Positions 26,698 through 41,402 of a stretch of DNA of 60,369 nucleotides are shown here, in pieces. The position numbers and the translations under genes are program-made. Origin of the DNA: an uncultured Nitrospina sp. GTDB lineage: Bacteria; Nitrospinota; Nitrospinia; Nitrospinales; VA-1. The notes under the pieces are model-generated. The model was not told where the DNA came from. It searched no databases and worked only from the letters and a program-made list of their open reading frames with translations. The DNA is taken from contig CAZECX010000004.1 in the NCBI GenBank assembly GCA_964510965.1, positions 1-60,369 of the forward strand, given 5' to 3'. The first letter of the stretch is position 1; each line of letters starts with the position of its first letter.

Positions 26698-27819
26698 ATG
26701 AGTAATCTTATTACGATCGGAAAACGTTCATTAGAAGAAGGCAAGTTATGTGCATTGGCCTTTTATTTATTTTATGGAGTCATACTTTTTCTCGGCCTAT
26801 TGCTTTTTACGGTCCATAACCGTCCCCAAATAAATTTGGAGGGACTTGTAGATTTCTCGCTTCCTGGAATTCATAATCAACTGCTTCCACTGCTTTCTGC
26901 TACATTCCTTGGCTACTTATCAATGCGACTGGCTCGTCAGCTCTCAGTTCCTATTGTTAATTCTTTTATTTTGGGAATGGGCACCCAGATGGTGTACCTA
27001 ACTTTCCCCAATAATCTTTGGTTTTTTTGGAAAACCTATCCGGCTAGTTGGTGGATTTTCTATATGGCTGTATTTTGGACTTTAGCAGTGAATCAAAATT
27101 ATGAAGAGCAAAAGGATTATACTTTATCATGGTTGAGCATTTCAGTGCTTGCTGGAATGTATTGGGTAGATTGGATCGCCACATTTATTCTTATAATGTT
27201 TTATTGCATGGTGTCCATGCGAAGACCGACTGTGGTTTCAATGAAAGAGTATTTCTTGCAATTAGCCAAAGCTCCTCTGGTGCTGGGAGTAGGGGTCCTC
27301 GTAGTAAAATATACGTTGATTTATCTAGGTATAAGCCTGCTCACTGGAATTTCCAGCGAGTTTTTCTTGCAGGCTTACTGTGAAGAGGGTGTAAGAGGGT
27401 TGGTGTTAAGGCCATTTCCACCTCAACTTCCGAGTTGGAGTATTCTAATTGTATTAGGAGTCATCTCGACTATTGCAGTGCTTATTTTTGTGGAACGAAA
27501 AGAAAAACTTTTTTTTCATCAAGTTATTTTAATTTCGGGTGTCGCGGCTTTTCTTTTTTCAAAAAAGCTTACTCATGGGGCTTTCCATGAATATGGAGTC
27601 TATGATACTTTCCTGGCGTTCCCGCTTATTCTAGCATTATTAACTCTTGTTCCGGCCTGGCTTGAAAATTTCAATGGACATTCAGGGATATTTATTCTTG
27701 TTGCTACTCTATTGGCTTTTTGCTCTTCTTTTATTCAATTACGAAATTATGCTGTGCTTTATCCCATTCCAGGTCCAAATTTTTATAGTGCTTGCTTGTC
27801 GGGCCCCTTTTATCATTAG
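26698..27819 (+). CDS. Multi-pass membrane protein, paralog of 28294-29613
   Basis: About 10 hydrophobic segments; shares TVH(N/D)R, HxQxxPxLS, TFPxNL and PLILALxxLxPAWLE with 28294-29613. Confidence 0.75.
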   Translation: MSNLITIGKRSLEEGKLCALAFYLFYGVILFLGLLLFTVHNRPQINLEGLVDFSLPGIHNQLLPLLSATFLGYLSMRLARQLSVPIVNSFILGMGTQMVYLTFPNNLWFFWKTYPASWWIFYMAVFWTLAVNQNYEEQKDYTLSWLSISVLAGMYWVDWIATFILIMFYCMVSMRRPTVVSMKEYFLQLAKAPLVLGVGVLVVKYTLIYLGISLLTGISSEFFLQAYCEEGVRGLVLRPFPPQLPSWSILIVLGVISTIAVLIFVERKEKLFFHQVILISGVAAFLFSKKLTHGAFHEYGVYDTFLAFPLILALLTLVPAWLENFNGHSGIFILVATLLAFCSSFIQLRNYAVLYPIPGPNFYSACLSGPFYH

Positions 27820-27859
27820 CAAAACTTTAGAGCAGGAAAATTTATCCAAATCATGGATG

Positions 27860-28249
27860 TTATGGTGAGGGGGGAGGGGTTGAATTTTCTAAGTTTGGTT
27901 CTGGGTTCTGCATAGATTTGGAGCTCTCTTTCCAAATAAGTTTAAGTTCGTAAATTATGGGGCTTATCTTTTCACCAATTTGTCGAATCCGCCGAGCATA
28001 TTGTTGAACTTCTTTTTCCGGTAGCTGTATTAATTTAGCCTCCAAGGCTGGGACTACCCGCGAAGACATCTTAATAACTGTATTGCCTAAAACTACCGTG
28101 CCAATTCCTCCAATTCCTACACAAAGTAGAAGAACAATCATGGTTTTAAAAAAAAATGAAAGAAGCCCTGAAGTGCCATAACCAGGGTTTAAAGCTTCAG
28201 GTTTTAACGGTTTTTCCTTCTGTTTGTTAATTTCTGAATTATTCTCCAT
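27860..28249 (-). CDS. Small single-TM hypothetical protein
   Basis: GGAGG RBS before ATG at 28249 (MENNSE...); one TM helix then an amphipathic helix; co-oriented directly after 28294-29613. Confidence 0.65.
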   Translation of the reverse strand: MENNSEINKQKEKPLKPEALNPGYGTSGLLSFFFKTMIVLLLCVGIGGIGTVVLGNTVIKMSSRVVPALEAKLIQLPEKEVQQYARRIRQIGEKISPIIYELKLIWKESSKSMQNPEPNLENSTPPPSP

Positions 28250-28293
28250 GTTAATACCTCCATAAATTAAATTGAATGAGGCAGGTTTTAATA

Positions 28294-29613
28294 TCAAAAG
28301 TAAGGCGGCATATGGAGCCAGTAAGCAAGCATTTGCCCTCCAGCAAAAGCAAAGGCTGTCAAACCTGAAAAAAGAACAAAGACACCAGAGTTTTGATTTA
28401 AAGTTTCCAACCAAGCGGGCAAAAGTGCGAAAAGAGCCAGAATCAAAGGTAAAGCCAAGAGAGGTTCATAGATGTTAATGTGAATCACTTCATTTTGGCT
28501 AAAAACAAAAGCCATAGGAATAAATGATCCTATACCCAGCAATAAGGTCGTTTGATGGTCCAAATGTTTCTTTGTCCTTTGATTAAAGAAAATTACGGCA
28601 ATGGTTGCTGAAGTACCCAAAAATAAAAGCACCTTCCATTTTGGTAGCCAAGGAACATATTGAGAAAAAAGTAAATCCCAATGGTTGGAATAATATTGGA
28701 TATCTCCATCCAACCCCGTTCGAAAATTAAGGGAAGAGCCGTCCAGAATAATTTGTGGAAAATTTAGTTTTACCCAAAGAATTTGGCCCGTCATGATAAG
28801 TGCTGCCGGCACTGCAGCAAAAACTACCGATTTAAGAAATTTAAAAATATTGAGCTCTCTAGGGGCGATGATTAAAAAAATAAAGCCGTAGGACAACATG
28901 AAAAAAAATGTAATGTAATGATCAATATAAAACATCAAGAAAACAATTAGAATCCAAATTGTTTTACTCTTTCCATCATATCCTTTCCAGTTAAAGTGAT
29001 TGTCAATCAATAAAAAGAGTATTGCAAAAGTTAACCAAACATGAACCTGATAGAAATCGAAGACGGCCGACAGGTTCATGGGGAAAGTTTGGAAAACAGT
29101 GAGTGCACTTAATCCCAAAGCTAAGGAGTGGAAAGAGGATATTTTCATTTGAAGTGACAAGCGCATTGCTAATAATCCGAGAAGAGCAGAGGAGAGCATT
29201 GGAAAAAACTGGCTATGCAAGGCCATAAGGAAATAATTAAATTTGCCGGTGACTTTTACATGAGCTCTTTGAAGAAGATGAGCCAATTGCAAATATCCCA
29301 TTGTTAATGACTTCCAGACTACTTGTCGAGGATCTTCTTCAGCAGATTTCTTGAAAGCCAGGCCGCCATGGACAAAATAGCCATGGTTGATCCAGACTTT
29401 TATGGAATCGTAATTTAGGGGACGCCCTCTTTTTCTAAACTCCTCTTCAGTACGGTCATGTACCGTATTGAAAAGAAGAATAAAAAGGGCGAAGCTGTAT
29501 AGGAAAATTATTACCAATGGCATTCTTACGTTTGCGCAAAGGTTCTGGCGAAGTTTTTCAATTGAAATTGTCATTTTGGGAAAGCTAGAGAAAAAAACAG
29601 AATGGCTAACCAT
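28294..29613 (-). CDS. Multi-pass membrane protein, possible GT-C-type (lipid-linked sugar) transferase
   Basis: TM1, a large acidic/aromatic loop (DRTEEE...NYDS..WINHG), then many TMs and a second loop; lies beside a GtrB-like GT2. The GT-C call is inference. Confidence 0.6.
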   Translation of the reverse strand: MVSHSVFFSSFPKMTISIEKLRQNLCANVRMPLVIIFLYSFALFILLFNTVHDRTEEEFRKRGRPLNYDSIKVWINHGYFVHGGLAFKKSAEEDPRQVVWKSLTMGYLQLAHLLQRAHVKVTGKFNYFLMALHSQFFPMLSSALLGLLAMRLSLQMKISSFHSLALGLSALTVFQTFPMNLSAVFDFYQVHVWLTFAILFLLIDNHFNWKGYDGKSKTIWILIVFLMFYIDHYITFFFMLSYGFIFLIIAPRELNIFKFLKSVVFAAVPAALIMTGQILWVKLNFPQIILDGSSLNFRTGLDGDIQYYSNHWDLLFSQYVPWLPKWKVLLFLGTSATIAVIFFNQRTKKHLDHQTTLLLGIGSFIPMAFVFSQNEVIHINIYEPLLALPLILALFALLPAWLETLNQNSGVFVLFSGLTAFAFAGGQMLAYWLHMPPYF

Positions 29614-29940
29614 ATTCTAAGTTAAAACTGAGCTGAATGTAAAGTTGTGTCAATATGCCAGCCATAAGGTTCAAGTAAGGTTCAAATACTGTTGAAGATC
29701 TGCTGAATCTGGTATAGTACGAGCAGCAAGGGTGATTGCTAGAATAATGTAGTGACAGAGAGTTTCTTTCGCGCTTTCAGGGTGGGATTGATTCACGGAA
29801 AAACTGACAGTTCCCGCCAGGAAGCCAAATCAGCTATTTATCATAATAAATTAAGTTATTTACCACCTTTTCCGCAAAGGATAAGTAACTTATTCGAAAT
29901 TTAGCTACCTACAGAGGGTATTGGTAAAATAATAATCAAT

Positions 29941-30966
29941 ATGGTCAAACTATATAAGATTAGAAAATTTTTAAAGCATTTAAGCTTTATGAGAAGCCCT
30001 GTGTTGGTTAAAAGGATTTTCCAAGGCTACTACAACAGTTTAATCAAGGGAAAAGATACTCTCCGGTCTATTGAACTGGCTATTGACTATAGATGTCAGG
30101 CAACCTGCCACAAATGCTATTCTGCTAATTTGGGTACCCATTTCCCCAATGCGAATTATGTCAATAAGCCCATGATGACGGTAGATGAGATACGTCGTAC
30201 CGTTGACCAAGCGATGGACTTAGGTTTGATTCATGTAAATATTACAGGTGGAGAACCTACGCTTCGAAATGATCTTGCTGAAATTGTAGAAGCTTGCAGG
30301 CCCAGGGAAATTATGGTGTCGCTCGTTACTAATGCTCTTTCTTTATCTAGAGAAAAACTAAAGACATTAAGTGAACTTGGGCTGAACCTTTTGCAAATTA
30401 GCTTGGACTCCGCCGATGCTAAAACTCATGATGAGTTAAGGGGCGTACCTGGGTGCTACGACAAAGTAATGCAAACAGCTGCTTGGGCTAAAGAATTTGG
30501 AATAAATCTTTGCTTTACCACCGTTCTTTCTACCGAAAGCACCAGTAATGGTAGCGAAACTCGTAAATTGCTGGAAATTGCTGAGCGAGAAAATGCCTAT
30601 CTTCTTATTTGTGACTCCGCTTCAGTAGGGGGATGGGAAGATCAAGGAGAAAAGGTGATGACAAGAGAAGAAAGAGACGAAACGCTTTTTGAGCTAATGA
30701 AGCATCCTCTTACCCGGCACCATAATATGTATAATTTTAGAGGTTCAATCGGGTGTCCCGCTTCGCATGAAAAGGTCTATATCACATCCCATGGCGATGT
30801 GACCCCCTGTAATTTAGTTCATGATAGTTTTGGTAATGTTTTGAGTACGCCATTGTTTGATATTCTTGCGGAGATGCGAAAAGACCCTTTATGGTCCCAA
30901 ACCCATGATACTTGCCCGCGATACTTGGAAGAGGAGTTTGCAACTCGTGGTGGAGTTCCCATATGA
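29941..30966 (+). CDS. Radical SAM protein with SPASM/twitch-like C-terminus
   Basis: CQATCHKC, ITGGEP, LVTNA, QISLDS, C-terminal GCPASHEKVYITSHGDVTPC...C. Confidence 0.92.
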   Translation: MVKLYKIRKFLKHLSFMRSPVLVKRIFQGYYNSLIKGKDTLRSIELAIDYRCQATCHKCYSANLGTHFPNANYVNKPMMTVDEIRRTVDQAMDLGLIHVNITGGEPTLRNDLAEIVEACRPREIMVSLVTNALSLSREKLKTLSELGLNLLQISLDSADAKTHDELRGVPGCYDKVMQTAAWAKEFGINLCFTTVLSTESTSNGSETRKLLEIAERENAYLLICDSASVGGWEDQGEKVMTREERDETLFELMKHPLTRHHNMYNFRGSIGCPASHEKVYITSHGDVTPCNLVHDSFGNVLSTPLFDILAEMRKDPLWSQTHDTCPRYLEEEFATRGGVPI

Positions 30967-31709
30967 ATCAAGACGAATTCGAGGCGATGGATGCTGGCGG
31001 TCCTGGCCAGTGGTGGTACAATGCTAGAGAGAAGTTGTTAGTAAGGGAATTAAAAAAGCTCTCTTTAGATAAACCGAACCTGAGAATTCTTGACTTAGCA
31101 TCTGCATGTGGTGGTAATTTTTCTACGTGCTATAAACACGGAAAAGTTTTTGGTTTAGATATATCTTGGAAATCAATTGAAATCTGCAAAACAAAGGGCA
31201 TCCAAAATCTAGTTCAGGCAGATGCCCAAGAGCTTCCTTTTGTGAATGGATCTATGGATGTGGTTATTGCTCTGGATGTGCTGGAACATTTAGAAAATGA
31301 TTCTGGATCGATGCGTGAGGTTGCCAGAGTTTTAAATAAGGACGGAGTTTTTATATTCAATACGCCTGCCATGATGCAGCTTTTTTCCTATCATGATTTA
31401 GCATTCCACCACTTCAGAAGATACTCTGCTGTTGAATTAAAGAATAAATTAATTAATGCCAATTTGCAGGTAAGCTGGATTACTTATTGGTCTTTCTTTA
31501 TGTTTCCTGTGGTTTATTCTTTTAGGAAGCTAAAAAATTTTTTTAGCAATTCAGAGGACCAGCCATCAAGCGATTTTCAAATGAAGATTCCTGAATTCAT
31601 TGATAATATCTTTCGATTTTTTAGCCAAATAGAGATCTATCTTCTTAAGCGAAAAATGTATCTTCCAATTGGAGTTTCTCTTTTTGGTACGGCACGAAAA
31701 GTTAACTAG
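30963..31709 (+). CDS. Class I SAM-dependent methyltransferase
   Basis: RILDLASACGG motif I, GLDIS, QADAQELPF, ALDVLEHLEND; ATGA overlap with the upstream gene. Confidence 0.88.
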   Translation: MNQDEFEAMDAGGPGQWWYNAREKLLVRELKKLSLDKPNLRILDLASACGGNFSTCYKHGKVFGLDISWKSIEICKTKGIQNLVQADAQELPFVNGSMDVVIALDVLEHLENDSGSMREVARVLNKDGVFIFNTPAMMQLFSYHDLAFHHFRRYSAVELKNKLINANLQVSWITYWSFFMFPVVYSFRKLKNFFSNSEDQPSSDFQMKIPEFIDNIFRFFSQIEIYLLKRKMYLPIGVSLFGTARKVN

Positions 31710-31715
31710 TTTGTT

Positions 31716-32675
31716 ATGAAGCAATTCTCTGTGATCCTTCCTCTAATGAATGAGGAGGAGGTATTTGAAGAATTATACTCGAGAGTGAAGGAAACCATGG
31801 ACTCTTTGGGTGCTTCTTATGAAATTATTTTTGTGGATGATGGAAGTGACGATTCCACGGGCAAGTTGATTCTGGAATATAGTAAGAAAGACCACAGTAT
31901 TATAGGGGTACTGCTTTCAAGAAACTTTGGCCAGGATAATGCAATTTTGGCAGGCTTAAAGGTCGCTGAAGGACAAGATATCATATTGATGGACGGAGAT
32001 CTTCAGGACCCGCCAGAAGTAATTCTAGATCTTATTCGTGAAAAGCAAAAGGACTATGATGTAGTTTATGGAATAAAGACAGATAGGAAAGAAGGGGTAA
32101 TGATTAAAGGAATGACCTCTATGTTTTATCAGTTTATGTTTTTTTTGTCAGGAATTCGAATGCCAAGAAATGTTGGAACATTTTCGATTTTTTCCCGACA
32201 GGTTGGAAATGCAATAATACAATTTCCGGAGTCAAATAAATTTTTCAGTGGGCTCAGATTCTTTGTGGGTTTTAAGCAAGTAGGAGTTTTTTATGAAAGG
32301 GAAAGGAGAGTTCAAGGGAAATCAAAATCCTTTATTTCCTTGGCCAGGATGGCGATGAATGCAATTTTTTCGTATACCATTTTCCCGATGAGACTGGCCA
32401 TACTTTTTGCTTCAATTCTAACAATTTTAACAGGGTTTGTTTTACTGCTTTATATTTTTCAAGCCATAATAGGCTCCCAAACATTTATTGATTTATCATT
32501 GTTTTTTGAGCCTTTTACAATTTTGGTTTTAGGCATGATATTAATGATTTTGATTGTGATTGCAGAGGTTGTGGGTCGCATTGATGCTCAGGTGAAAAAG
32601 AGACCTGAATATATTGTCAAATCAATAATTCGAAATGGGGCAGTTGATATTGGAGCTCCATTTGTCTTGCATTAA
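31716..32675 (+). CDS. GT2 glycosyltransferase, GtrB/ArnC-like polyprenol-phosphate sugar transferase
   Basis: VILPLMNEEE, FVDDGSDD, LSRNFGQ, MDGDLQDPPE, two C-terminal TMs, KRPEYIV. Confidence 0.92.
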   Translation: MKQFSVILPLMNEEEVFEELYSRVKETMDSLGASYEIIFVDDGSDDSTGKLILEYSKKDHSIIGVLLSRNFGQDNAILAGLKVAEGQDIILMDGDLQDPPEVILDLIREKQKDYDVVYGIKTDRKEGVMIKGMTSMFYQFMFFLSGIRMPRNVGTFSIFSRQVGNAIIQFPESNKFFSGLRFFVGFKQVGVFYERERRVQGKSKSFISLARMAMNAIFSYTIFPMRLAILFASILTILTGFVLLLYIFQAIIGSQTFIDLSLFFEPFTILVLGMILMILIVIAEVVGRIDAQVKKRPEYIVKSIIRNGAVDIGAPFVLH

Positions 32676-32720
32676 ATGCAAACTGATTTTTAAAAAGCAA
32701 ACCATTTTATAGGCAGTCCT

Positions 32721-34325
32721 ATGAGAATTACATTTGTAATGATGGGTTGGGAAAACCTTTCCGTCCAATATATATCCTCATATTTGAAAGAACGTGGGCA
32801 TGAAGTACGGCTTGCTTATGATCAATCTCTGTTTGAGGATAAAAATTATTTATCAATGCCGTTTTTGGCTCGCATTTTTGATCAGGGAGACAATATTGTC
32901 AAACAGGTTATTGACACAGAACCGGATTTGGTATGTTTTTCTGTTATGTCTGTTACCCACCAATGGTCACTTAAGACAGCCGAGGAAATTAAGAAATACA
33001 TGAATGTCCCCATATTGTTTGGTGGCATCCACGCTATAATCTGCCCGGAAGAAATTATTGCAAAAGACCAAGTGGATATGGTTTGTCTGGGTGAAGGTGA
33101 ATATGCTCTGGCCGATTTATTGGATAGCATGGAGAAGGGGGCGATAGATAAATCATTAGATGGGTTTTATTTTAAAAAAGCAAATGGTGAAGTTATCAGG
33201 AACAAAAAGCGTGGCCTTATTGCTGACATGGACACTATGCCTTTTCCTGATAAAGAGCTTTTTGCTCCATTTATTCCGATTAAAAATTACTACCTGGCAG
33301 TGACTAATAGAGGCTGCCCTTTTTCATGTTCCTATTGTTCTGTTTCTGCGCAAGATGCTGTTGAGAAAGATTTGGAAAACTTTAAAAAAGTGAGAGAGCG
33401 CAGTGTAGATAATGTTTTGGAAGAACTTAGAATCAATAAGGCTAAATACGGCTATAAATGGATTGATTTTAGAAACCCAGTTTTTTCTCCTTCAAAAGAT
33501 TGGATATTAGAATTTTGTGAGAAATATAAGGAACAAATAAATGTTCCCTTTCGTATTTTCAGCCATCCTTTGCTTATAAGGGAAGACACCTCTATAGCTT
33601 TGAAAGAAGCAGGATGTTTTGCTATTCAAATGGGCCTTGAATCTTATGATCCTGATGTCAGAAATAAATTCTTGCATAGGATAGAGACAAATGAGCAAAT
33701 TAACAAGGCTATAGGAATAATGGAGAAAGTTGGAGTTACTTATTCCATGGATTATATCCTCAATCTTCCAGGTCAAGAAGAGCCGGAACTCATAGAAGTT
33801 GGTAAACTTTTTTCAGGGTTGAAATATCTTTACAGGGTTTCTCCATTTTTGTTGACATATCTCCCTAAATTAAAAATTAACGAATACGCAATGCAAGAAG
33901 GGGCGTTGGATCCCAAAGAAGAAAAAAATATCAACCAAGGGCTCCAGGGAAGCTATATGGATATTGGCTCCGATATGGAAAAGAATAGAAGAAAGCTAAT
34001 GCAAACGTATAAGCTATTTTTTAGATTAATGAGCTTTATGCCCAGGTGGATGAAGCAGTTAACTTTTAAAACAAAGATTTATCATATGTTTTATTATTTG
34101 CCCTTTGATTTTATTCTGAGGCTTTTTGATTTAAGCATGGTATTTCGTGATTATGATGCTAATGCTTATGCGCGTAATTATTGGTGGTGGTTTTCAAAAA
34201 GGTTCAACTCTAAGCATCCGAGCTACTTTTTCAATAACCTAAAGGCATTTAGAGGGCCCAATGATCCCCCCAAAAATAGGAATTCTATCAAGCTAAGTCT
34301 TGCCGAAGATCGTTCCCTTCTGTAA
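32721..34325 (+). CDS. Cobalamin-binding radical SAM protein
   Basis: N-terminal B12-binding domain (QYISSYLKERGHEV; LFGGIHA..CPE; GEGE), RGCPFSCSYC, QMGLES. Confidence 0.92.
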   Translation: MRITFVMMGWENLSVQYISSYLKERGHEVRLAYDQSLFEDKNYLSMPFLARIFDQGDNIVKQVIDTEPDLVCFSVMSVTHQWSLKTAEEIKKYMNVPILFGGIHAIICPEEIIAKDQVDMVCLGEGEYALADLLDSMEKGAIDKSLDGFYFKKANGEVIRNKKRGLIADMDTMPFPDKELFAPFIPIKNYYLAVTNRGCPFSCSYCSVSAQDAVEKDLENFKKVRERSVDNVLEELRINKAKYGYKWIDFRNPVFSPSKDWILEFCEKYKEQINVPFRIFSHPLLIREDTSIALKEAGCFAIQMGLESYDPDVRNKFLHRIETNEQINKAIGIMEKVGVTYSMDYILNLPGQEEPELIEVGKLFSGLKYLYRVSPFLLTYLPKLKINEYAMQEGALDPKEEKNINQGLQGSYMDIGSDMEKNRRKLMQTYKLFFRLMSFMPRWMKQLTFKTKIYHMFYYLPFDFILRLFDLSMVFRDYDANAYARNYWWWFSKRFNSKHPSYFFNNLKAFRGPNDPPKNRNSIKLSLAEDRSLL

Positions 34326-34466
34326 CTGAGGAAAGGAAAGTTTGGCAGTTAGACTGCACGTTTACCGCCTTAGGTTTTTATAAGGATATAACCCTATTCA
34401 ATAGGGTTTATGACTGATCAAATCAACGGTTTTTTCAAGCTCTGCTTTTATAGGAGTAATTAAGGC

Positions 34467-35528: not shown

Positions 35529-35638
35529 CAAAAAAATATTGTATTTCCTGCCATTGCCTGAAGTTTTCTCACGCATGGAAACCTCACTATAGTCCCTAAT
35601 CTGTATGAACTTTTTCACATTAACTTAAAGAATGCTGA

Positions 35639-36451
35639 ATGAATTCCTTACAATCATGTCTTAAGGGAAAGTCAATTTTGATTACAGGGGCTTCAGAAGG
35701 CATTGGTCTTGCGATAACTGAAACACTTAGTAGTTTTGGAATGAAAATGGGATTGTTGGCTCGTTCCGAAGAAAAACTTATAAAAATAGCCGCTCGGGTA
35801 AATTCGGTTGGAAGTGAGGCTTTTATTCTAAAGGCAGACTTGAGCGATCGCAAAGAAGTGGAAGATGCTGCACGAAAATTCGAAGAGGTACACGGTGTCC
35901 CCGATTTTTTAATAAATAATGCGGGTATCGGTCTCAGGGGATTTTGGAAGGATATAGATTTGGATGCAGAGCTAAAAGTTTTATCCGTTAATTTTACTGC
36001 CCCATTAATTCTAATTCGCTACTTTCTACCAGCAATGTTGCAAAGAAACAGCGGTCATATAATAAACATCAATGCCTTTGGAGGGATGTTCTCGAACCCC
36101 TATCAAGGCGCCTACGGCGCAAGTAAATCAGCTCTCCTTTTTTACGCCTCAAGCCTTGCGTATGAACTTGAAAATACAAATGTGCAAATCTCCTCGATTA
36201 TTCCTGGCGCTATAAATACAGATTTTCTCAACCAGGCAAACTACGAAGTATTCAAAAACCGTTCCGATATTGTATCCCCAAAAGTGGTAGCAGAAAAAGT
36301 GTTGGAGACAATCAAAAAACCTAGAGAAATAGCTTACGTGGGGCCAGCATGGAAAAAAATCGCAATAAAAGTCATTAACTTGTATCCCGAATTCTTTCGA
36401 AAAATTGTAGAAAAGGGGAATATTCCTCCCTCGTCAACTTCAAAAAACTAA
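35639..36451 (+). CDS. Short-chain dehydrogenase/reductase
   Basis: ITGASEGIG, LINNAGIG, YGASK catalytic YxxxK, IPGAINT. Confidence 0.93.
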   Translation: MNSLQSCLKGKSILITGASEGIGLAITETLSSFGMKMGLLARSEEKLIKIAARVNSVGSEAFILKADLSDRKEVEDAARKFEEVHGVPDFLINNAGIGLRGFWKDIDLDAELKVLSVNFTAPLILIRYFLPAMLQRNSGHIININAFGGMFSNPYQGAYGASKSALLFYASSLAYELENTNVQISSIIPGAINTDFLNQANYEVFKNRSDIVSPKVVAEKVLETIKKPREIAYVGPAWKKIAIKVINLYPEFFRKIVEKGNIPPSSTSKN

Positions 36452-36551
36452 ACCGGGTAAAAATAATCAAGCTCCAGAGGTTACCTATCACAGGCCACCT
36501 TTTTCTATTTTATCCAGAGGGAGACTAAATTATAATCCGGTTTTTTGGTTT

Positions 36552-38120
36552 TTAATGCCGGCAAAACCCTCTAAATTGCTTGGGAACATAGCACATGCTA
36601 ATAGCATTTTTGCTAAAAATTTTTTTGATCTCTTCCTCTTTTTTACCTCCTTGGGGTACTAGTCCGAGATTGCAACCGGCTTCTAATAGTACTTGTGGCC
36701 CGTCGATGAAAGGAAAAAACGCATCCGCGGCAAAAACAGAAGACTCCATTGAATGGCCTTGTTCCTGAGCCCGGCACACAGCATTCCGGATAGCGATGAT
36801 CGTTGATGGTCCTCCCCCCAAGCCAACCAATTGTCTACCCTTTACAAGAGCCACCTCGTTACCACCTAAATTAGAACTCCAAACCGTCGCCCATGCCAGA
36901 ATCAGAGATTCGATTTGTTCTTTAGAAGGATCTTCTCCTACCCAATAAGAACTTTTCAAATCCAAAATATAATTTGCTGGAGGCTGGCGGATCATTCCAC
37001 CGCGAACCCACCGTAAACCCCAAGGTTGGTTTGGCAGCATTGGATCGACCAAAGTCTTATTTCTAAAAATTTTCCTGTTTTTCCGTTGTGAAAGAGTTTC
37101 GACTGCATACGGAGAAAAGGAAGGTGCCACTACTACATCCAGCATCCAATTCCTTGTGCCAAGCATTTCTTGTCTAACAGAGCTGTCAATAAGCAAATTA
37201 ACTAGGTCATCGGTTATGGGAAAGTTACAAATGAACTCCCCTCCCCAAACTGCCTGAGGATTTCCAAATAGAGCATTTTCCAAGGCAACTGCAGGGTCTT
37301 TCCAGTCGATGGCAAAACCACAAGGGTTGCCATGCTTGGAGGCGATAGCCAGAAAAGGGGATTGCCTAAATTCCTTTTTAAATGCCTCATGAGCCAGGCA
37401 CAACGTCTGGAGAATGCTATCTAAATCGGCCAAATTGGTAAAACAGGGTGCCTCCTTTCCCAACAATTCAAACTTGTGAAGGGATAGCGGATCGTTGTCA
37501 CCAAAATCCGAAAAAAGATGACAGGGGCTCTGATAAGGGTTTTCCCCACTTGATAGTTCTAGGTTTTTAATGCTAACGATACCTTCACCAAAAGAATCTT
37601 GCTGCTGTAAAAGTTTTACGTAATGAGCGGCAATATGAACAAGGGTTTTGTTTGTAAATTCCGCCTTCAGGGAATCAGAGACTTTTCCATTCACTTTAAA
37701 TTCCCCGATGCATCGTTCCATATCGGTATAGGACATAATGGGAATCCTATTACCCTTTACCGCAAGAGCCAAAAGCGTATGTCCACCTACATCATTGCCC
37801 TGGTCAAGCGAATATGGGATATCGAAAAGCAAATCAATTCTCTTGTCAGTCTGTTCTAAGGTCAGTGCTGATTCAATCTTGGGGTGCAGAGTTGGTGGAA
37901 ACCCGTAATCTTCAGATATGCCAACAAACGATTCAATGTCAATGCAGGGAATTTGAATTTCTTTTAACAATGGGGTGGTTTCTTTTGTAGATATGATCTC
38001 CCAACCCAATTGATGTAAACTCCGTGCAAATTCCTTAACCTGGGTGGTGTTGGATAAAGAAAATAATGCTCTCAATAAATCCCTCCGGTCATCCCTCAAA
38101 TGTCCCTTCTGATAGACCAT
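36552..38120 (-). CDS. Divergent PurH-like protein (degenerate MGS/IMPCH domain + AICAR-transformylase-like domain)
   Basis: RALFSLS, TLHPKI, SGENPYQ, KHGNPCG, DVVVAPSF, AADAFFPFIDG retained; canonical STGGT and GRVKTLHP replaced by STKET and GFPPTLHP. Confidence 0.82.
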   Translation of the reverse strand: MVYQKGHLRDDRRDLLRALFSLSNTTQVKEFARSLHQLGWEIISTKETTPLLKEIQIPCIDIESFVGISEDYGFPPTLHPKIESALTLEQTDKRIDLLFDIPYSLDQGNDVGGHTLLALAVKGNRIPIMSYTDMERCIGEFKVNGKVSDSLKAEFTNKTLVHIAAHYVKLLQQQDSFGEGIVSIKNLELSSGENPYQSPCHLFSDFGDNDPLSLHKFELLGKEAPCFTNLADLDSILQTLCLAHEAFKKEFRQSPFLAIASKHGNPCGFAIDWKDPAVALENALFGNPQAVWGGEFICNFPITDDLVNLLIDSSVRQEMLGTRNWMLDVVVAPSFSPYAVETLSQRKNRKIFRNKTLVDPMLPNQPWGLRWVRGGMIRQPPANYILDLKSSYWVGEDPSKEQIESLILAWATVWSSNLGGNEVALVKGRQLVGLGGGPSTIIAIRNAVCRAQEQGHSMESSVFAADAFFPFIDGPQVLLEAGCNLGLVPQGGKKEEEIKKIFSKNAISMCYVPKQFRGFCRH

Positions 38121-39406
38121 TCCGTTCCATGGTCTCCGTTAATGGAGGCGATTTCGACTTCCGAGGATGGCCCAGAGTCATCACTGAACGACTCCATCTT
38201 TTTTATGACCGTGTAGATCTCATACAGCCCTCGGTAAAAAGGCAGGGCCTTGTCAAAATTACTCATTATAACTTCATCGTTTAAGCCTATACCTCTGGGG
38301 CAATCCTGATGAGTTTTTATGCATTTGTACTTGTACGTTCCTTGGTCGTCTTGCATTACATTGTATTGAACCGCAAAGGAAGTATTGGGGCAACACACGC
38401 CGGCGGTTTGTCGATCAGGGGATAGAAAAGCCAGTTGCCCGCCGTGGTAAAGGACATAAAAATATGGATAAGCGACATGAAATGAAGTATAGCAAGGAAT
38501 TCCCGATGCTTTAATCAACTCGTCAACGGAATACCATTGATCAATTTGGACGGGAAAATCAAAATCCCCCATGGTGCGCTTCAATTTGACTTGGGTGCTA
38601 TATTTATCGCAAAGTTTATCATTGATATGCTTGGCATCAGTAGGCTTGTCTAAAATAGAAAAAGTGACTTGTGTTCTGTAGTCTGGACACCCAGCGACAA
38701 AATTATTATTTTCAATATCCAGGTAAGGGTAAATGGAGGTAAATGCTGCTGGGCAGAGTTCATCTCTCTTGTCCAGGTTAAAATAAAAATCATGGTCTCG
38801 AGTGATTCCAATAAGGCAACCCTTGCCTTCATCCACGGCCTTAATATGAATATCCTTGTCAGGAATTTCAACAGGCATTATAAAATTTAGGATCCATCTA
38901 AGAATATTCTTAAAGTATACCCAGGGGTTGAATTTTCTTTTTGAGGAGTAAATCCTGAAGCTCACTCCATCGGACCCTAGAGGGCAGGAAATTATTTCCC
39001 CGGCAGGATTCATTTTCAGTTTTGACTTATTCTGATTGCAATGCAGGGCCAACAGTGTCGGATAAAGATTCAAAAAAGCTGCGGGGCACATGCCTTGGCT
39101 GAGAAGGCTGACTTGCTTGTTATCTGAATTCAATGGATGGTAACGGCACCTGTTGTCGGTAGCATCGTATACAAGTTTCAGTCCCTTCTCCTTTTCTTCG
39201 GCCATCCTTGCACATAAGGGGTGACTTGAAACTTCTTTGTTGGTTATTGTCGACATATTACTGAAGAAATGCTCATAAAAGAGTAGTAAGCAATTTTTTA
39301 AATTATCACAAATATTTGTTATCAATTCAAGGACAACAGGTTTTTGATCCAAATCCCGACATAGCAACTGGATGCTGCAGGTCAGCGTTTTATATTCATA
39401 GGGCAC
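38096..39406 (-). CDS. Cys-rich protein with three tandem TIGR04076-like domains
   Basis: Repeats MCPAAFLNLYP...SCPLGSDGVSF, LCPAAFTSIYP...GCPDYRTQVTF and PCYTSFHVAYP...CCPNTSFAVQY. Family assigned from memory of the motif. Confidence 0.68.
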   Translation of the reverse strand: MPYEYKTLTCSIQLLCRDLDQKPVVLELITNICDNLKNCLLLFYEHFFSNMSTITNKEVSSHPLCARMAEEKEKGLKLVYDATDNRCRYHPLNSDNKQVSLLSQGMCPAAFLNLYPTLLALHCNQNKSKLKMNPAGEIISCPLGSDGVSFRIYSSKRKFNPWVYFKNILRWILNFIMPVEIPDKDIHIKAVDEGKGCLIGITRDHDFYFNLDKRDELCPAAFTSIYPYLDIENNNFVAGCPDYRTQVTFSILDKPTDAKHINDKLCDKYSTQVKLKRTMGDFDFPVQIDQWYSVDELIKASGIPCYTSFHVAYPYFYVLYHGGQLAFLSPDRQTAGVCCPNTSFAVQYNVMQDDQGTYKYKCIKTHQDCPRGIGLNDEVIMSNFDKALPFYRGLYEIYTVIKKMESFSDDSGPSSEVEIASINGDHGTEWSIRRDI

Positions 39407-39451
39407 TCATAAATTTACGAAGAAAAGACATGCAATCTAATTTTTTAAGGC

Positions 39452-40807
39452 CTATTTTAAAAAAAAATATATTTTTTTCGCGATTCCATATGCTGGATGC
39501 TCGTAATTATATGGTAATAACCTTTTCGCAAAATTTTTAGAAGTTGTTAAGAACATTTCGTAAAACCGTTCTTTGCCAATTCTTTTATTATATATCTTAA
39601 AGTACTCCTCAAGTTCTTCAATGGATTCTGCTCTTCCATTATCAGCATACTTTGTAACATAATAATCAAAATCTCCTTCGTAAAGGGATCTCATGTTGTG
39701 CAAAGTAGTTTTCATAAAGTTTCCAATTAACAAGTCATCAAAAATTTCATAATTTACTGCTTTCATCAAACTATTTCGGGGAGCTTCGAATGTAATCCCT
39801 TTATTTTTTTCTCCCTTTAGTTTGATAAAATTATCCTTATTTCCCACTCGGAAATTTATGAATGAAATAAACTGATTGACTTTTTCTTTTCTAGAAAAAT
39901 AGTCACTAATCCTGTTTAAGTCCTTTTGATTTAATTCTTCGGTCCAATCGTCGCCAAAAGTTTTAGAGTCCAATTGCTCTATCAAATTTTTTTCGACCTC
40001 AATCTGATGGATTTCACCATTCGAACAATTTACAATTGCGAATGGCGGAATATATTCTAAATCTTCATGGAATTTAATAGAATAGGCATCTATTGGGGTT
40101 GTGTATTTGTTTGTCCAAATGGAATCGTTTCTTTGGTATATATGGAAGGAACTAAAGGGAATTACACTATTTAAACCGAGAGATTTAGCATATAAAGACA
40201 AATCATTTCCAACATGGGTATTTTTTAATGCAATAGGTTCAATGAAATCTCCATTTTCATCATAAAAATTGATCATATCTGCGTCACCATATCCTGATAG
40301 CGTCAGCAAAAATTTTTTCCGATAATTCTTGGATATTTTCTTGATAATTCCAGTGCAACCTTTATCCCCAGCATCATTAAGATTTACAAATAAGTACCCA
40401 TTTATATCAACTAAAAGAATTGCGTTTTGAGTTACTGTGGTGATGCAAAACACCTTTATCTTTCCTGAAAGGTTTACCCACTTTCTGTCAGGAAGTATTC
40501 CTACATCAAAACCTTTTTGTTCAAGCCCGTCTTTTATTCTACTCCCTACGTGGTCCGGCAAAAGAATTTTATTGCTTTTGAAGCGTTCAATGCTGGAAGG
40601 ATTTAAATGATCTGGGTGTCCATGAGAAAACCAGATAAATTCTGCATTATGGATATCATTCTTTATTGGAGTAGGTATTTTATGAGACAGGTTCCAACTC
40701 CCAAAATACGCATCATCTTCCTCTCCAAACCAAGGATCTGTTGCCAAGATGCATTTCTTTTCATAAGCTACCAAAGTTGCATTTCCTATTGTTTTAAGGT
40801 GTGGCAT
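39452..40807 (-). CDS. MBL-fold metallo-hydrolase/oxygenase (UlaG / CMP-Neu5Ac-hydroxylase-like core)
   Basis: LATDPWF...YFGSWNLSH, FSHGHPDH metal motif, NLNDAG, IPFSSFH. Confidence 0.78.
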   Translation of the reverse strand: MPHLKTIGNATLVAYEKKCILATDPWFGEEDDAYFGSWNLSHKIPTPIKNDIHNAEFIWFSHGHPDHLNPSSIERFKSNKILLPDHVGSRIKDGLEQKGFDVGILPDRKWVNLSGKIKVFCITTVTQNAILLVDINGYLFVNLNDAGDKGCTGIIKKISKNYRKKFLLTLSGYGDADMINFYDENGDFIEPIALKNTHVGNDLSLYAKSLGLNSVIPFSSFHIYQRNDSIWTNKYTTPIDAYSIKFHEDLEYIPPFAIVNCSNGEIHQIEVEKNLIEQLDSKTFGDDWTEELNQKDLNRISDYFSRKEKVNQFISFINFRVGNKDNFIKLKGEKNKGITFEAPRNSLMKAVNYEIFDDLLIGNFMKTTLHNMRSLYEGDFDYYVTKYADNGRAESIEELEEYFKIYNKRIGKERFYEMFLTTSKNFAKRLLPYNYEHPAYGIAKKIYFFLK

Positions 40808-41174: not shown

Positions 41175-41402
41175 TTAAGCAGGAGGGCTAGTTTCGCCGT
41201 ATTCGTTGAGTTTGTTACGTAGGGTGCGGATGCTGATTCCTAACGAGTCGGCAGCTTTTGTTTTGTTGCCGTTGACCTCTTCGAGGGTCTGCATGATGAG
41301 TTCCTTTTCCATTTCATAGATAGTTCCCGACAATCGCGGAGCCCCTTTTTCCTTGGAGTGCAATTCTTCATCGAAGAACAAATGCGATGGCAATATCGTA
41401 TC
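41175..41402 (-). repeat. Second copy of the 228-bp direct repeat (intact gene end)
   Basis: ~94% identical to 26258-26485, same orientation. Confidence 0.95.

What the first reader, a model, noticed from the sequence alone, without database searches (positions are those of the whole stretch)
26698..40807. Candidate undescribed surface-modification pathway: three radical SAMs + GtrB-like GT + PurH-like + triple TIGR04076 + MBL + membrane transferase pair
Seen: eleven genes in an AT-rich, repeat-bounded block. A plus-strand operon (rSAM-MTase-GT2-B12 rSAM-rSAM-SDR) converges on a minus-strand operon (MBL-Cys repeat protein-PurH-like), and two paralogous multi-pass membrane proteins sit at the left. 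Known: GtrB/ArnC-type GT2s load a sugar on a polyprenol phosphate and GT-C proteins transfer it outside the membrane; B12 radical SAMs typically methylate unactivated carbons; PurH-type domains transfer formyl groups. I know no characterised pathway with this combination. Inference: synthesis of a heavily tailored (C-methylated, formylated, oxidised) sugar or nucleoside-like moiety attached to LPS, a lipid such as a hopanoid, or a surface protein, possibly for phage evasion. No GtrA-like flippase or NDP-sugar synthase is visible.
Basis: partly seen in the sequence, partly recalled or inferred. Interest (0 to 1): 0.85.

Follow-up and report, generated by a model that had tools for sequence, protein, structure and literature searches.

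The report
Radical-SAM glycan-tailoring island, Nitrospinaceae
A 14.7-kb inserted block in a Nitrospina-like marine bacterium pairs a lipid-carrier sugar-transfer machine with an enzyme set (three radical SAM enzymes, a reductase, a cysteine-rich repeat protein and a remodelled purine-synthesis enzyme) that recurs next to sugar-pathway genes in many uncultured phyla and whose chemistry nobody has described.

Summary
All the named genes are present. There are twelve, not eleven, because a small conserved membrane protein was missed. The block has lower G+C than the rest of the window (38.3% against 42.5%). It is bounded by a 230-nt, 94% identical direct repeat, which is the duplicated 3' end of a sigma-54 activator gene.

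The genes are not a random accretion. The PurH-like gene belongs to a distinct clade, about 25-28% identical to canonical PurH, that is spread over more than ten phyla. In 33 of 50 loci it sits beside a TIGR04076-repeat protein. Those loci almost always carry radical SAM genes (28 of 32 against 4 of 18). Orthologues of the 353-aa rSAM (53-66% identity) and of the SDR (47-54%) lie in 8 and 6 of them. Neighbours are heptose-nucleotide or nonulosonate genes, GT2 and GT-C enzymes.

The two paralogous membrane proteins have a GT-C fold by structure prediction. The GT2 has the ArnC/PgfS architecture.

PurH-like keeps the catalytic Lys-His pair but has lost three AICAR-contacting residues (from memory, phosphate contacts) and the cyclohydrolase Lys66. 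It is therefore not a normal PurH.

Best reading: a horizontally acquired surface-glycan tailoring and transfer island with an undescribed core module. The chemistry and the acceptor remain unknown. The hopanoid reading is not supported, and the MBL call is weak.

The parts
26255..26484 (.). Left copy of the 230-nt direct repeat. It is a displaced 3'-terminal fragment (HTH_8) of the sigma-54 activator gene and lies inside the 95-aa remnant ORF 26258-26545 (-).
   Evidence: 94% identical to 41172-41401; similarity stops at both ends of the repeat
26698..27819 (+). memA: multi-pass membrane protein, paralogue of memB. It lacks the ~70-residue first external loop of memB.
   Evidence: no family; 30% id, E 2e-22; loop missing; a 372-aa no-Pfam gene in the same relative position (opposite strand, after the ~187-aa gene) lies next to a memB homologue (its sequence was not compared)
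27860..28414 (-). Small single-pass membrane protein. The probable start is Met at 28249 (129 aa). It is conserved immediately downstream of memB homologues.
   Evidence: 35% id, E 1e-13 to L057:11324-11881
28294..29574 (-). memB: 426-aa multi-pass membrane protein with a GT-C-like fold. It is the candidate periplasmic glycosyltransferase.
   Evidence: 22 homologues; the one named source is Nitrospina sp.; pLDDT 85, pTM 0.88; top 12 hits STT3, PglB, Pmt4, AftA/B, DPY19, GPI-MT-I; ArnT and ALG6 further down the list; TMq up to 0.54, prob 1.0
29941..30966 (+). Radical SAM enzyme with a SPASM/twitch-type C-terminal Fe-S domain.
   Evidence: CQATCHKC; nearest solved: PqqE, SkfB, BlsE, MoaA, ~50 bits
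30912..31709 (+). Class-I SAM-dependent methyltransferase. The likely true start is ATG at 30963, which overlaps the upstream stop codon.
   Evidence: the 247-aa orthologue in L001
31716..32675 (+). GT2 of ArnC/GtrB/PgfS architecture (catalytic domain plus two C-terminal TM helices). Candidate polyprenol-phosphate sugar synthase.
   Evidence: (PgfS 186 bits and ArnC 156 bits, full length, both below equivalog cut-offs)
32721..34325 (+). B12-binding (class B) radical SAM enzyme.
   Evidence: orthologues at 36-42% id in 7 PurH-like loci (L006, L007, L021, L026, L030, L032, L036); 79% DNA identity to L001/L005
34467..35528 (+). Radical SAM enzyme (MoaA/viperin/BlsE-like core). It is the most conserved partner of the module.
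   Evidence: orthologues at 53-66% id in Nitrospinaceae, Uhrbacteria, Magnetococcales, Thalassospiraceae, Omnitrophota and an 'Enterobacteriaceae' MAG
35639..36451 (+). Classical SDR oxidoreductase, usually adjacent to the 353-aa rSAM orthologue.
   Evidence: five database SDR-TIGR04076 fusion proteins
36552..38120 (-). PurH-like protein (MGS/IMPCH-like plus AICARFT domains). It belongs to a distinct non-canonical clade. Its start (ATG 38120 or TTG 38099) overlaps the stop codon of the upstream gene.
38096..39256 (-). Triple TIGR04076-like repeat protein, 386 aa, with 10 invariant Cys. Confident predicted fold with no solved relative.
   Evidence: pLDDT 82, pTM 0.87; no PDB match
39452..40807 (-). 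Putative MBL-fold hydrolase (HGHPDH) with a long C-terminal extension. It has the lowest G+C in the block (32.9%) and is not found next to the module elsewhere.
41172..41401 (.). Right copy of the direct repeat. It forms the 3' end of the intact NtrC/FlrC-type sigma-54 activator gene (41175-42563, -).

Best explanation
The block 26485-41171 is a horizontally acquired surface-glycan tailoring and transfer island in a Nitrospinaceae genome. It is inserted at the 3' end of a flagellar-type sigma-54 activator gene. It has two functional halves.

**Half 1: the tailoring module (cytoplasmic).**
- Shown: the module is recurrent, and its components belong to the families named below.
- Inferred: it remodels a nucleotide-linked sugar made elsewhere in the genome. 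In related loci the sugar genes nearby are of the heptose or nonulosonate type.
- Inferred roles of the parts:
  - The 353-aa rSAM and the SDR act as a radical oxidation or dehydration step followed by ketoreduction. This is the logic of AprD4/AprD3 or of viperin.
  - The B12-rSAM methylates an unactivated carbon.
  - The SPASM rSAM performs a second radical step, such as epimerisation, oxidation or decarboxylation.
  - The methyltransferase adds an O- or N-methyl group.
  - The TIGR04076-repeat protein and PurH-like are translationally coupled. They act with the SDR as a complex. TIGR04076 is a Cys-ligated metal or Fe-S accessory. PurH-like uses its retained Lys-His dyad for a folate-dependent one-carbon (formyl) transfer. 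Its substrate is nucleotide- or nucleoside-like but is not AICAR 5'-phosphate.

**Half 2: the export and attachment device.**
- Shown at the family and fold level only: the ArnC/PgfS-type GT2 and the GT-C-fold protein memB.
- Inferred: the GT2 loads the product onto polyprenol phosphate. After flipping by an unidentified flippase, memB transfers it to an acceptor outside the cytoplasmic membrane. Its paralogue memA and the small membrane protein assist. The acceptor (LPS, another glycan or a protein) is unknown.
For: **Family assignments and motifs:**

**Recurrence**
- The PurH-like clade has more than 1236 database clusters.
- It was found in 47 genome loci across Nitrospinaceae, Omnitrophota, Patescibacteria, Anaerolineae, Planctomycetes, Magnetococcales, Rhodocyclaceae, Syntrophia, SAR324 and two archaeal MAGs.
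- A TIGR04076-like gene lies beside PurH-like in 33 of 50 loci.
- TIGR04076-positive loci carry rSAM genes in 28 of 32 cases; TIGR04076-negative loci do so in 4 of 18 (Fisher p = 6e-6; the loci are not phylogenetically independent).
- Orthologues of the 353-aa rSAM (53-66% identity) lie in 8 of these loci and of the SDR (47-54%) in 6, but not in other rSAM-rich Nitrospina cassettes, where the best rSAM is about 30% identical.
- The same gene set appears in a different order in another Nitrospinaceae MAG. The 4.9-kb core block there is 84% identical in DNA.

**Physical linkage**
- Five independent SDR-TIGR04076 fusion proteins exist.
- The TIGR04076 stop codon overlaps the PurH-like start.

**Glycan context**
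- GHMP kinase, NTP-transferase, SIS, HAD and transaldolase genes, GT9, NeuB, NAD-epimerases, ArnC-type GT2 and PMT/GT87 GT-C proteins are neighbours.

**Transfer device**
- GT-C fold of memB.
- ArnC/PgfS architecture of the GT2.

**PurH-like active site**
- It keeps K266/H267, D339, N431 and F541 (human numbering).
- It has lost R207, Y208, R451, K14, R64 and K66 (residue lists in PMC3261824 and PMC9525906).

**Island status**
- Flanking repeat and lower G+C.
- Orthologous loci in relatives have fliF, hypDEF or other cargo directly after the activator gene.
Against: - No NDP-sugar synthase, aminotransferase or flippase lies in the block. The substrate, the amine acceptor for a formyl group and the flipping step are therefore all unaccounted for.
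- No rSAM here is close to a characterised enzyme: about 50 bits to the nearest solved structures.
- PurH-like also occurs without TIGR04076 or rSAM genes, next to nucleoside phosphorylase and nucleoside ABC transporter genes or housekeeping genes. These loci are interspersed in the family tree. Its role may therefore be nucleoside chemistry rather than sugar tailoring.
- memB has no invariant acidic residue in its first external loop. The Foldseek E-values are only about 2e-3.
- memA, memB and the MBL gene do not travel with the module elsewhere.
- There is no integrase in the block.
- All relatives are uncultured, so no phenotype exists.
Confidence: 0.6

Rival explanations
1. PurH-like and TIGR04076 do not tailor the sugar. 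They are a nucleoside-handling accessory for rSAM-rich clusters. For example, they might process 5'-deoxyadenosine or an adenosyl adduct made by an rSAM that adds the 5'-deoxyadenosyl radical to its substrate, in the manner of HpnH, MqnE or ArsS.
For: - PurH-like lost three AICAR-contacting residues (R207, Y208, R451) and IMPCH-site residues (K14, R64, K66). I recall several of these as contacts of the 5'-phosphate in canonical PurH. It kept the catalytic residues (PMC3261824).
- It is tightly associated with rSAM genes when TIGR04076 is present.
- In Anaerolineaceae it sits between a nucleoside phosphorylase and a Bmp-type nucleoside ABC transporter.
- The nearest solved relatives of the small rSAMs act on nucleotides or nucleosides: MoaA, viperin and BlsE.
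Against: - IMP cyclohydrolase chemistry strongly favours ring closure, so a catabolic role is awkward (established enzymology; not tested here).
- The module includes one specific, highly conserved rSAM-SDR pair rather than any rSAM.
- No deaminase or nucleosidase lies in the window block.
Confidence: 0.15
2. The block modifies a membrane lipid. It would be a hopanoid-type side-chain pathway: an HpnH-like rSAM, an HpnI-like GT2 and an HpnJ-like B12-rSAM.
For: - NCBIfam's best hit for the B12-rSAM is HpnJ (90 bits).
- The 353-aa rSAM hits HpnH (86 bits).
- A GT2 lies between them.
Against: - The scores are far below the cut-offs: 90 against 577.6, and 86 against 225. They are no better than the hits to MoaA, BchE or RiPP enzymes.
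- No squalene or hopene genes were seen among the genes examined.
- Related loci carry heptose, nonulosonate, GT9 and GT-C genes, not lipid genes.
- The module occurs in Patescibacteria and in archaeal MAGs.
Confidence: 0.07
3. The block is a peptide (RiPP-like) maturation cluster. The SPASM rSAM, the B12-rSAM and the methyltransferase would modify a Cys-rich substrate, possibly the TIGR04076 protein itself.
For: - The rSAMs give weak hits to RiPP maturases: ApyD, StsB, SkfB and CcpM.
- The TIGR04076 protein has 10 invariant cysteines.
Against: - No short precursor gene or RRE domain was seen.
- The TIGR04076 protein is a 386-aa protein with a confidently predicted fold (pTM 0.87), and it is fused to SDRs elsewhere.
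- The contexts are sugar pathways.
Confidence: 0.05
4. The block is a chance accretion of unrelated or decaying genes in an insertion hotspot, with no joint function.
For: - The site is a hotspot that holds different cargo in relatives.
- The block is a mosaic: DNA identity to L001 is 84%, 79% and 73% in three segments.
- The MBL gene has a deviant G+C of 32.9%.
Against: - All reading frames are intact with catalytic motifs.
- Eight of the twelve genes recur together across phyla.
- Overlapping start and stop codons point to operon organisation.
Confidence: 0.03

Closest known systems
Arn (lipid A aminoarabinose) pathway: ArnA formyltransferase/decarboxylase, ArnC, ArnT
   Same: - The overall logic is similar: a cytoplasmic nucleotide-sugar is tailored with a possible formyl transfer.
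- A GT2 then loads the sugar on undecaprenyl phosphate. The window GT2 aligns full length with ArnC at 156 bits.
- A GT-C enzyme transfers it outside the membrane. ArnT is among the fold matches of memB.
   Different: - There are no ArnA, ArnB, ArnD or ArnE/F homologues.
- The candidate formyltransferase has the AICARFT (PurH) fold, not the PurN/Fmt fold.
- Three radical SAM enzymes and a TIGR04076 protein have no counterpart in Arn.
- The ArnC equivalog score is not reached (156 against 529).
Gtr (phage-type O-antigen glucosylation: GtrA, GtrB, GtrC) and Streptococcus Pgf (PgfS, PgfM1, PgfE, PgfM2) systems
   Same: - A GtrB/PgfS-type GT2 is combined with multi-pass membrane transferases. PgfS is the best NCBIfam hit of the GT2 (186 bits).
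- Like Pgf, the window has two paralogous membrane proteins (this comparison is from my own knowledge of Pgf).
   Different: - There is no GtrA-type flippase.
- memA and memB have no sequence similarity to GtrC or PgfM families (no Pfam or NCBIfam hit).
- A large radical tailoring module is attached.
- The PgfS cut-off is not reached (186 against 500).
Bifunctional PurH (AICAR formyltransferase / IMP cyclohydrolase)
   Same: - The two-domain architecture is the same and aligns end to end: 177 bits to C. jejuni PurH 4ehi.
- The catalytic Lys-His dyad is invariant.
- The Asp339, Asn431, Phe541, Tyr104, Asp125 and Lys137 equivalents are kept.
   Different: - It is only 25-28% identical to canonical PurH, against 40-55% within its own clade.
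- It scores below both PurH equivalog cut-offs.
- Lys66 is replaced by Pro. Arg207, Tyr208, Arg451, Lys14 and Arg64 are replaced.
- One MAG has up to three paralogues, each in an rSAM cluster (L006-L008).
AprD4/AprD3 (radical SAM diol dehydratase plus NADPH-dependent SDR reductase; aminoglycoside 3'-deoxygenation)
   Same: - An rSAM is paired with an adjacent SDR in a sugar pathway.
- AprD4 is the nearest solved relative of the window's B12-type rSAM (48 bits).
   Different: - Similarity is very low, and the AprD4 NCBIfam score is 37 against a cut-off of 500.
- The conserved rSAM-SDR pair here involves the 353-aa MoaA/viperin-like rSAM, not the B12-type one.
- The reaction is inferred by analogy only.
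Flexible 'glycotype' genomic islands of marine bacteria
   Same: - This is a variable, lower-G+C, mosaic glycan gene block at a hotspot whose content differs between close relatives.
- The general concept is from my own knowledge.
   Different: - The insertion is marked by a duplicated 3' end of a regulator gene.
- The cargo is dominated by radical SAM enzymes rather than ordinary glycosyltransferases.

Membership tests
Radical SAM superfamily (three proteins) | CxxxCxxC cluster motif and a Radical_SAM domain above the Pfam threshold | tested here: met
   82.7, 60.3 and 89.8 bits against a cut-off of 29.5. CQATCHKC, CPFSCSYC and CNLTCFFC.
Class B (B12-binding) radical SAM | N-terminal B12-binding domain fused to the rSAM core | tested here: met
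   PF02310 scores 66.5 bits (cut-off 32.1) at residues 10-133. No equivalog cut-off was reached for any characterised subfamily.
SPASM/twitch rSAM | C-terminal auxiliary Fe-S (SPASM) domain | tested here: met
   PF13186 scores 23.2 bits against a cut-off of 21.5 (marginal), at residues 272-311.
ArnC/GtrB/PgfS polyprenol-phosphate glycosyltransferases | GT2 catalytic domain followed by two C-terminal TM helices, with a full-length alignment to family models | tested here: met
   PgfS aligns 4-302 to 3-303 of 308; ArnC aligns 2-307 to 6-314 of 316. One search shows the hydrophobic C-terminal segments.
ArnC or PgfS orthologue (equivalog) | Score above NCBIfam's curated cut-off | tested here: not met
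   156 against 529 (ArnC); 186 against 500 (PgfS).
GT-C glycosyltransferase superfamily (memB, memA) | GT-C membrane fold | tested here: met
   the model has pTM 0.88. The top 12 PDB matches are all GT-C (STT3, PglB, Pmt4, AftA, AftB, DPY19, GPI-MT-I), with probability 0.99-1.0 and TMq 0.36-0.54. E-values are only 2e-3 to 1e-1.
GT-C glycosyltransferase superfamily (memB, memA) | Conserved acidic catalytic residue in the first extracytoplasmic loop | tested here: inconclusive
   the Asp in 'VHDR' after TM1 varies (D, N, S or R). The only near-invariant acidic positions are D289 and E390. memA lacks the loop altogether.
Gtr three-component system | GtrA-type small flippase next to GtrB and GtrC | tested here: not met
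   no such gene. The only small membrane protein has a single TM helix.
PurH (bifunctional AICARFT/IMPCH) | Two-domain architecture and the catalytic Lys-His dyad of AICARFT | tested here: met
   K262 and H263 are invariant in 33 sequences.
PurH (bifunctional AICARFT/IMPCH) | Equivalog score; IMPCH residue Lys66; AICAR contacts Arg207, Tyr208 and Arg451 (human numbering; lists in PMC3261824) | tested here: not met
   166.7 against 402, and 125.6 against 528. K66 to Pro, R207/Y208 to Ser/Ser (family consensus x/Asn), R451 to Thr.
TIGR04076 family | Score above the NCBIfam cut-off; Cys-containing unit of about 90 aa | tested here: met
   46.7 bits against 33; split homologues score 59.7 and 37.8 bits; three repeats with conserved Cys. 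JGI names relatives 'uncharacterized repeat protein (TIGR04076 family)'.
Metallo-beta-lactamase fold | HxHxDH motif and a Pfam score above threshold | tested here: inconclusive
   The motif HGHPDH is present. PF12706 scores 16.1 against 27. The N-terminus is 34% identical to annotated MBL hydrolases, E 4e-7.
Hopanoid side-chain cluster (HpnH, HpnI, HpnJ) | Equivalog-level matches to HpnH and HpnJ | tested here: not met
   HpnH 86 against 225; HpnJ 90 against 577.6.
Integrated genomic island | Flanking direct repeats, deviant composition, and absence from the same site in relatives | tested here: met
Integrated genomic island | Integrase or recombinase gene in the island | tested here: not met
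   none among the 12 genes.

The most novel reading that the evidence does not exclude
The conserved quartet (353-aa rSAM, SDR, TIGR04076-repeat protein, PurH-like) is a new enzyme system. In it, a repurposed purine-biosynthesis enzyme with the AICARFT fold, working with a Cys-rich metalloprotein of a fold not yet solved, performs folate-dependent one-carbon chemistry on a sugar-linked or 5'-modified nucleoside substrate. The product would be a surface-glycan decoration of a chemical type not yet described. One example would be a formylated or heterocycle-bearing higher sugar. The system would be used across more than ten mostly uncultured phyla.
Probability: 0.2. Interest if true: 0.85.

Novelty: new variant of a known kind. 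Interest (0 to 1): 0.66.

Why it matters
If the reading is right, several things follow.
- A widespread PurH paralogue clade would be wrongly annotated. It has more than 1200 sequence clusters and is often labelled as purine-biosynthesis PurH or as 'hypothetical'. It would instead be a glycan-pathway enzyme.
- The TIGR04076 domain, which has no known function and no solved structural relative, would gain its first functional context: partner of an SDR and of radical SAM enzymes.
- Uncultured marine nitrite oxidisers, Omnitrophota and CPR bacteria would share a radical-chemistry sugar-tailoring cassette. Its product could be a new class of surface sugar.
- That sugar would bear on phage-host recognition and on glycan biomarkers.
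- The enzymes could add to the repertoire of radical SAM and folate chemistry on carbohydrates.

Tried and rejected
- **Exact-sequence look-up of the PurH-like ORF** found nothing, because the called gene starts at a different codon.
- **PDB sequence search and Foldseek for the TIGR04076 protein** gave only chance hits to de novo TIM barrels and PCNA, with TM about 0.1. I take this as no solved structural relative rather than as a PCNA-like protein.
- **PDB and NCBIfam searches for the MBL candidate** gave nothing.
- **Literature searches** found no description of this module. Terms tried: TIGR04076; PurH-like or PurH paralogue; AICARFT or PF01808; radical SAM with glycan, heptose and AICAR; Nitrospina with radical SAM and islands.
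- **Sigma-70 promoter and terminator scan** was not enriched over shuffles.
- **Sigma-54 promoter pattern** was also not enriched, 59 against 46 ± 7.5, and no convincing site lies in the island's intergenic regions.
- **Plasmid collection:** only canonical purH matched, at 25-28% identity, and there was no TIGR04076-repeat homologue. No cultured or plasmid-borne handle was found.
- **An apparent TIGR04076-PurH-like fusion** (689 aa) in Rhodocyclaceae loci was rejected. It is an artefact of ORF extension in my gene caller: the TIGR04076 hit lies in a separate stop-to-stop frame.
- **PurH-like as the housekeeping PurH** was considered and rejected as unlikely. It lacks Lys66 and several AICAR contacts. 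One MAG carries three paralogues in rSAM clusters.
- **'VHDR' as the GT-C catalytic motif** was considered, but the Asp is not conserved.
I could not test whether the conserved cysteines cluster in space.

Full report
**1. What is in the sequence**

Between 26.7 and 40.8 kb the window encodes twelve intact genes. On the plus strand there is a run of six:
- an rSAM with a marginal SPASM domain (29941-30966)
- a class-I methyltransferase (30912-31709, probably starting at 30963)
- a GT2 (31716-32675)
- a B12-binding rSAM (32721-34325)
- a 353-aa rSAM (34467-35528)
- a classical SDR (35639-36451)

This run converges on a minus-strand run of three:
- a putative MBL-fold protein (39452-40807)
- a triple TIGR04076-like repeat protein (gene model 38096-39256, 386 aa)
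- a PurH-like protein (36552-38120)

The TIGR04076 stop codon overlaps the PurH-like start.

To the left lie three membrane-protein genes. memB (28294-29574) and memA (26698-27819) are paralogues with 30% identity, E 2e-22. It is conserved downstream of memB homologues. Catalytic motifs are visible in the translations: three CxxxCxxC motifs, TGxxxGxG and YxxxK, DxD-type motifs, and HGHPDH. The MBL assignment is the weakest. Pfam gives 16 bits against a cut-off of 27, and support is limited to the motif and a 34% N-terminal match to annotated MBL hydrolases.

**2. The block is an insertion**

A 230-nt direct repeat, 94% identical, lies at 26255-26484 and 41172-41401. The right copy is the 3' end (HTH_8 region) of an intact NtrC-type sigma-54 activator gene (41175-42563). 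The left copy is a 95-aa remnant. The 14.7 kb between the copies has 38.3% G+C against 42.5% for the rest of the window, the lowest value of any stretch of that length.

In metagenomic orthologues of the activator at about 80% identity, the gene is followed directly by fliF. In closer relatives (88-92%) it is followed by hypDEF or by other cargo. In the window, fliF lies at 14357-15949. The whole of 15950-41174 is therefore a variable insertion hotspot, and the repeat-bounded block is its most recent layer.

The block contains no integrase and the window has no tRNA gene. The mechanism of insertion is therefore open. The best match among genome assemblies is an uncultured Nitrospinaceae MAG at 84%, so the window most likely comes from Nitrospinaceae.

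**3. The genes are linked**

The PurH-like protein has more than 1236 database clusters at E ≤ 1e-5. Most are about 50% identical to it and are annotated 'hypothetical' or 'PurH'. Canonical PurH proteins are only 25-28% identical. In a neighbour-joining tree the family forms one clade, separate from canonical PurH.

I fetched 51 genome loci (47 of them members of the clade) and four metagenome loci, and clustered their ORFs. The results were:
- A profile of the TIGR04076-repeat protein finds a partner gene in 33 of 50 loci, nearly always immediately upstream of PurH-like. It occurs either as one protein of about 380 aa or as two of about 170-210 aa.
- Loci with that partner carry rSAM genes in 28 of 32 cases. 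Loci without it do so in 4 of 18 (Fisher p = 6e-6; the loci are not independent).
- Orthologues of the 353-aa rSAM reach 53-66% identity in 8 loci and those of the SDR 47-54% in 6. These loci come from Nitrospinaceae, Uhrbacteria, Magnetococcales, Thalassospiraceae, Omnitrophota and other MAGs.
- In other rSAM-rich Nitrospina cassettes that lack PurH-like, the best rSAM is only about 30% identical.
- In another Nitrospinaceae MAG the same eight genes occur in a different order. The rSAM-SDR-PurH-like-TIGR04076 core is one collinear 4.9-kb block at 84% DNA identity. The B12-rSAM is at 79% and the SPASM-rSAM plus MT segment at 73%.
- Five database proteins are SDR-TIGR04076 fusions, and one fuses TIGR04076 with DUF362 and ferredoxin domains.

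This refutes random accretion. It defines a core quartet (rSAM, SDR, TIGR04076, PurH-like) with frequent B12-rSAM and MT companions. memA, memB and the MBL gene were not found near the module elsewhere.

**4. Context points to glycans**

Neighbours of the module fall into several groups:
- the full set for a nucleotide-heptose pathway (SIS isomerase, GHMP kinase, HAD phosphatase, NTP-transferase, transaldolase), 4,6-dehydratase-type epimerases and GT9 heptosyltransferases, in about 11 loci
- NeuB, TPP enzymes, Fe-ADH and FkbM methyltransferases (nonulosonate-type clusters), in about 9 loci
- ArnC-type GT2 and GT-C proteins (PMT_2, GT87)

In the window, the GT2 aligns full length with PgfS (186 bits) and ArnC (156 bits), below their orthologue cut-offs, and has two C-terminal hydrophobic helices.

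memB has no family hit. An AlphaFold model built on 22 sequences (pLDDT 85, pTM 0.88) matches only GT-C enzymes in its top twelve PDB hits: STT3, PglB, Pmt4, AftA/B, DPY19 and GPI-MT-I, with ArnT and ALG6 further down the list. TMq reaches 0.54 and probability is 0.99-1.0. No invariant acidic residue is seen in the first external loop, and memA lacks that loop. Catalytic competence is therefore not shown.

The memB family is small (22 clusters; the one named source is Nitrospina sp.). In three other contigs it again sits next to rSAM, B12-rSAM, MT, GT2 or GT9 cassettes.

**5. The two odd proteins**

*PurH-like.* It aligns over both PurH domains (177 bits to 4ehi). I used the residue lists in PMC3261824 and PMC9525906 and the alignment to human ATIC.
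- Kept: the catalytic Lys266/His267 (invariant K262/H263 here); Asp339, Asn431 and Phe541; and the IMPCH residues Tyr104, Asp125 and Lys137.
- Replaced: Lys66 by Pro; Arg64 and Lys14; Arg207 and Tyr208; and Arg451 by Thr.

From memory, several of the lost residues bind the 5'-phosphate or the carboxamide of AICAR. If so, the substrate is AICAR-like or nucleotide-like but different.

One MAG carries three paralogues, each in an rSAM cluster (L006-L008). In about a third of loci PurH-like stands without TIGR04076 or rSAM genes. Examples are a position between a nucleoside phosphorylase and a Bmp nucleoside ABC transporter in Anaerolineaceae, and positions next to housekeeping genes. These loci are interspersed in the tree. 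This keeps open a nucleoside-type role.

*TIGR04076-repeat protein.* It has three repeats with ten invariant cysteines, three or four per repeat, including CP(A)AF...YP and CP motifs. Its predicted fold is confident (pTM 0.87) and has no solved relative. The family has only 253 representatives among 1.84 billion. The conserved Cys pattern, the ferredoxin/DUF362 fusion and the association with rSAM genes suggest a metal or Fe-S accessory. This is inference.

**6. Mechanism proposed**

*Shown:* family and fold assignments, recurrence, physical linkage and island status.

*Inferred:* a nucleotide sugar made elsewhere is remodelled in the cytoplasm in several steps.
- The rSAM-SDR pair carries out radical oxidation or dehydration followed by ketoreduction. 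The analogy is AprD4/AprD3 or viperin. The nearest solved relatives are BlsE, MoaA, viperin and AprD4 at about 50 bits.
- The B12-rSAM carries out C-methylation.
- The SPASM rSAM performs a second radical step.
- The MT adds a methyl group.
- PurH-like, working with TIGR04076 and the SDR, carries out a folate-dependent one-carbon transfer.
- The GT2 then loads the sugar on polyprenol phosphate.
- memB, with memA and the small protein, transfers it to an unknown acceptor outside the membrane.

*Gaps:* there is no sugar-nucleotide synthase, no aminotransferase and no flippase in the block. The acceptor is unknown.

**7. Rivals**

- PurH-like and TIGR04076 as nucleoside or adenosyl-adduct handling for rSAM clusters: 0.15.
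- Hopanoid-type lipid modification: 0.07. HpnH and HpnJ scores are far below their cut-offs.
- RiPP-like maturation: 0.05.
- Chance accretion: 0.03.

**8. Novelty**

The kind of system is known: a variable glycan island with a polyprenol-phosphate GT2 and a GT-C transferase. The tailoring module is not. I found no description of it in Pfam, NCBIfam, PDB or the paper library. I rate it a new variant of a known kind. There is about a one-in-five chance that the core quartet represents new enzymology.

Noticed in passing
window 15950-41174 (compare L062-L067, L058, L061, L068): The interval between the NtrC/FlrC-type activator gene and fliF is an insertion hotspot. Relatives at about 80% identity have fliF about 0.8 kb after the activator gene. 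Closer relatives carry hydrogenase maturation genes (hypDEF) or a PEP-utilising enzyme with an MHYT kinase there.
   Followed up: partly
window 15950-26484: There is a second inserted segment to the left of the repeat-bounded block. It holds a BCCT transporter, a CHASE3 hybrid kinase, response regulators and a GGDEF-like ORF. It has 40.8% G+C and is absent from the same site in relatives.
   Followed up: partly
window 10000-16600: A flagellar export and basal-body cluster lies here (FliF 14357-15949, FliI-type ATPase 11115-12443). A sigma-54-like -24/-12 match (TGGTAT-N5-TTGC) lies at 16509-16523 (-), upstream of it.
   Followed up: no
window 39452-40807: The putative MBL gene has 32.9% G+C, well below the rest of the island. 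It has no relatives near the module elsewhere, so it may be a separate, later acquisition.
   Followed up: partly
L018 and L019 (Anaerolineaceae), 9234-16376: Here PurH-like sits in an apparent nucleoside-salvage operon: a uridine or purine nucleoside phosphorylase, then PurH-like, then a Bmp/PnrA binding protein, an ABC ATPase and two permeases. There is no TIGR04076 or rSAM gene nearby.
   Followed up: partly
L006, L007, L008 (one Nitrospinaceae MAG, JAPYPM01): A single MAG carries three separate TIGR04076/PurH-like/rSAM/SDR cassettes. Their PurH-like proteins are 52-55% identical to the window's.
   Followed up: no
P0251, P0275, P0281, P0290, P0301, P0217 (database proteins): These are fusion proteins. 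Five have an N-terminal SDR joined to TIGR04076-like repeats. One has TIGR04076 joined to DUF362 and 4Fe-4S ferredoxin domains.
   Followed up: partly
L056 8292-9545: In a Nitrospina sp. MAG, the memB homologue and its rSAM-rich cassette lie directly beside a phage-type integrase and DUF3987/DUF5681 genes. In that genome the cassette may ride on, or sit next to, an integrative element.
   Followed up: no
window 52170-54314: This gene fuses a VTT (DedA-like) membrane domain with a pyridine nucleotide-disulphide oxidoreductase. It is conserved at 78% DNA identity in L057, where it also lies a few kb from a memB-type glycan cassette.
   Followed up: no
window 39297-39330: A 34-nt imperfect palindrome (overlapping 22-nt arms, 82% complementary) lies just upstream of the probable start of the TIGR04076 gene (39256). 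It could be an operator or a structural element.
   Followed up: no
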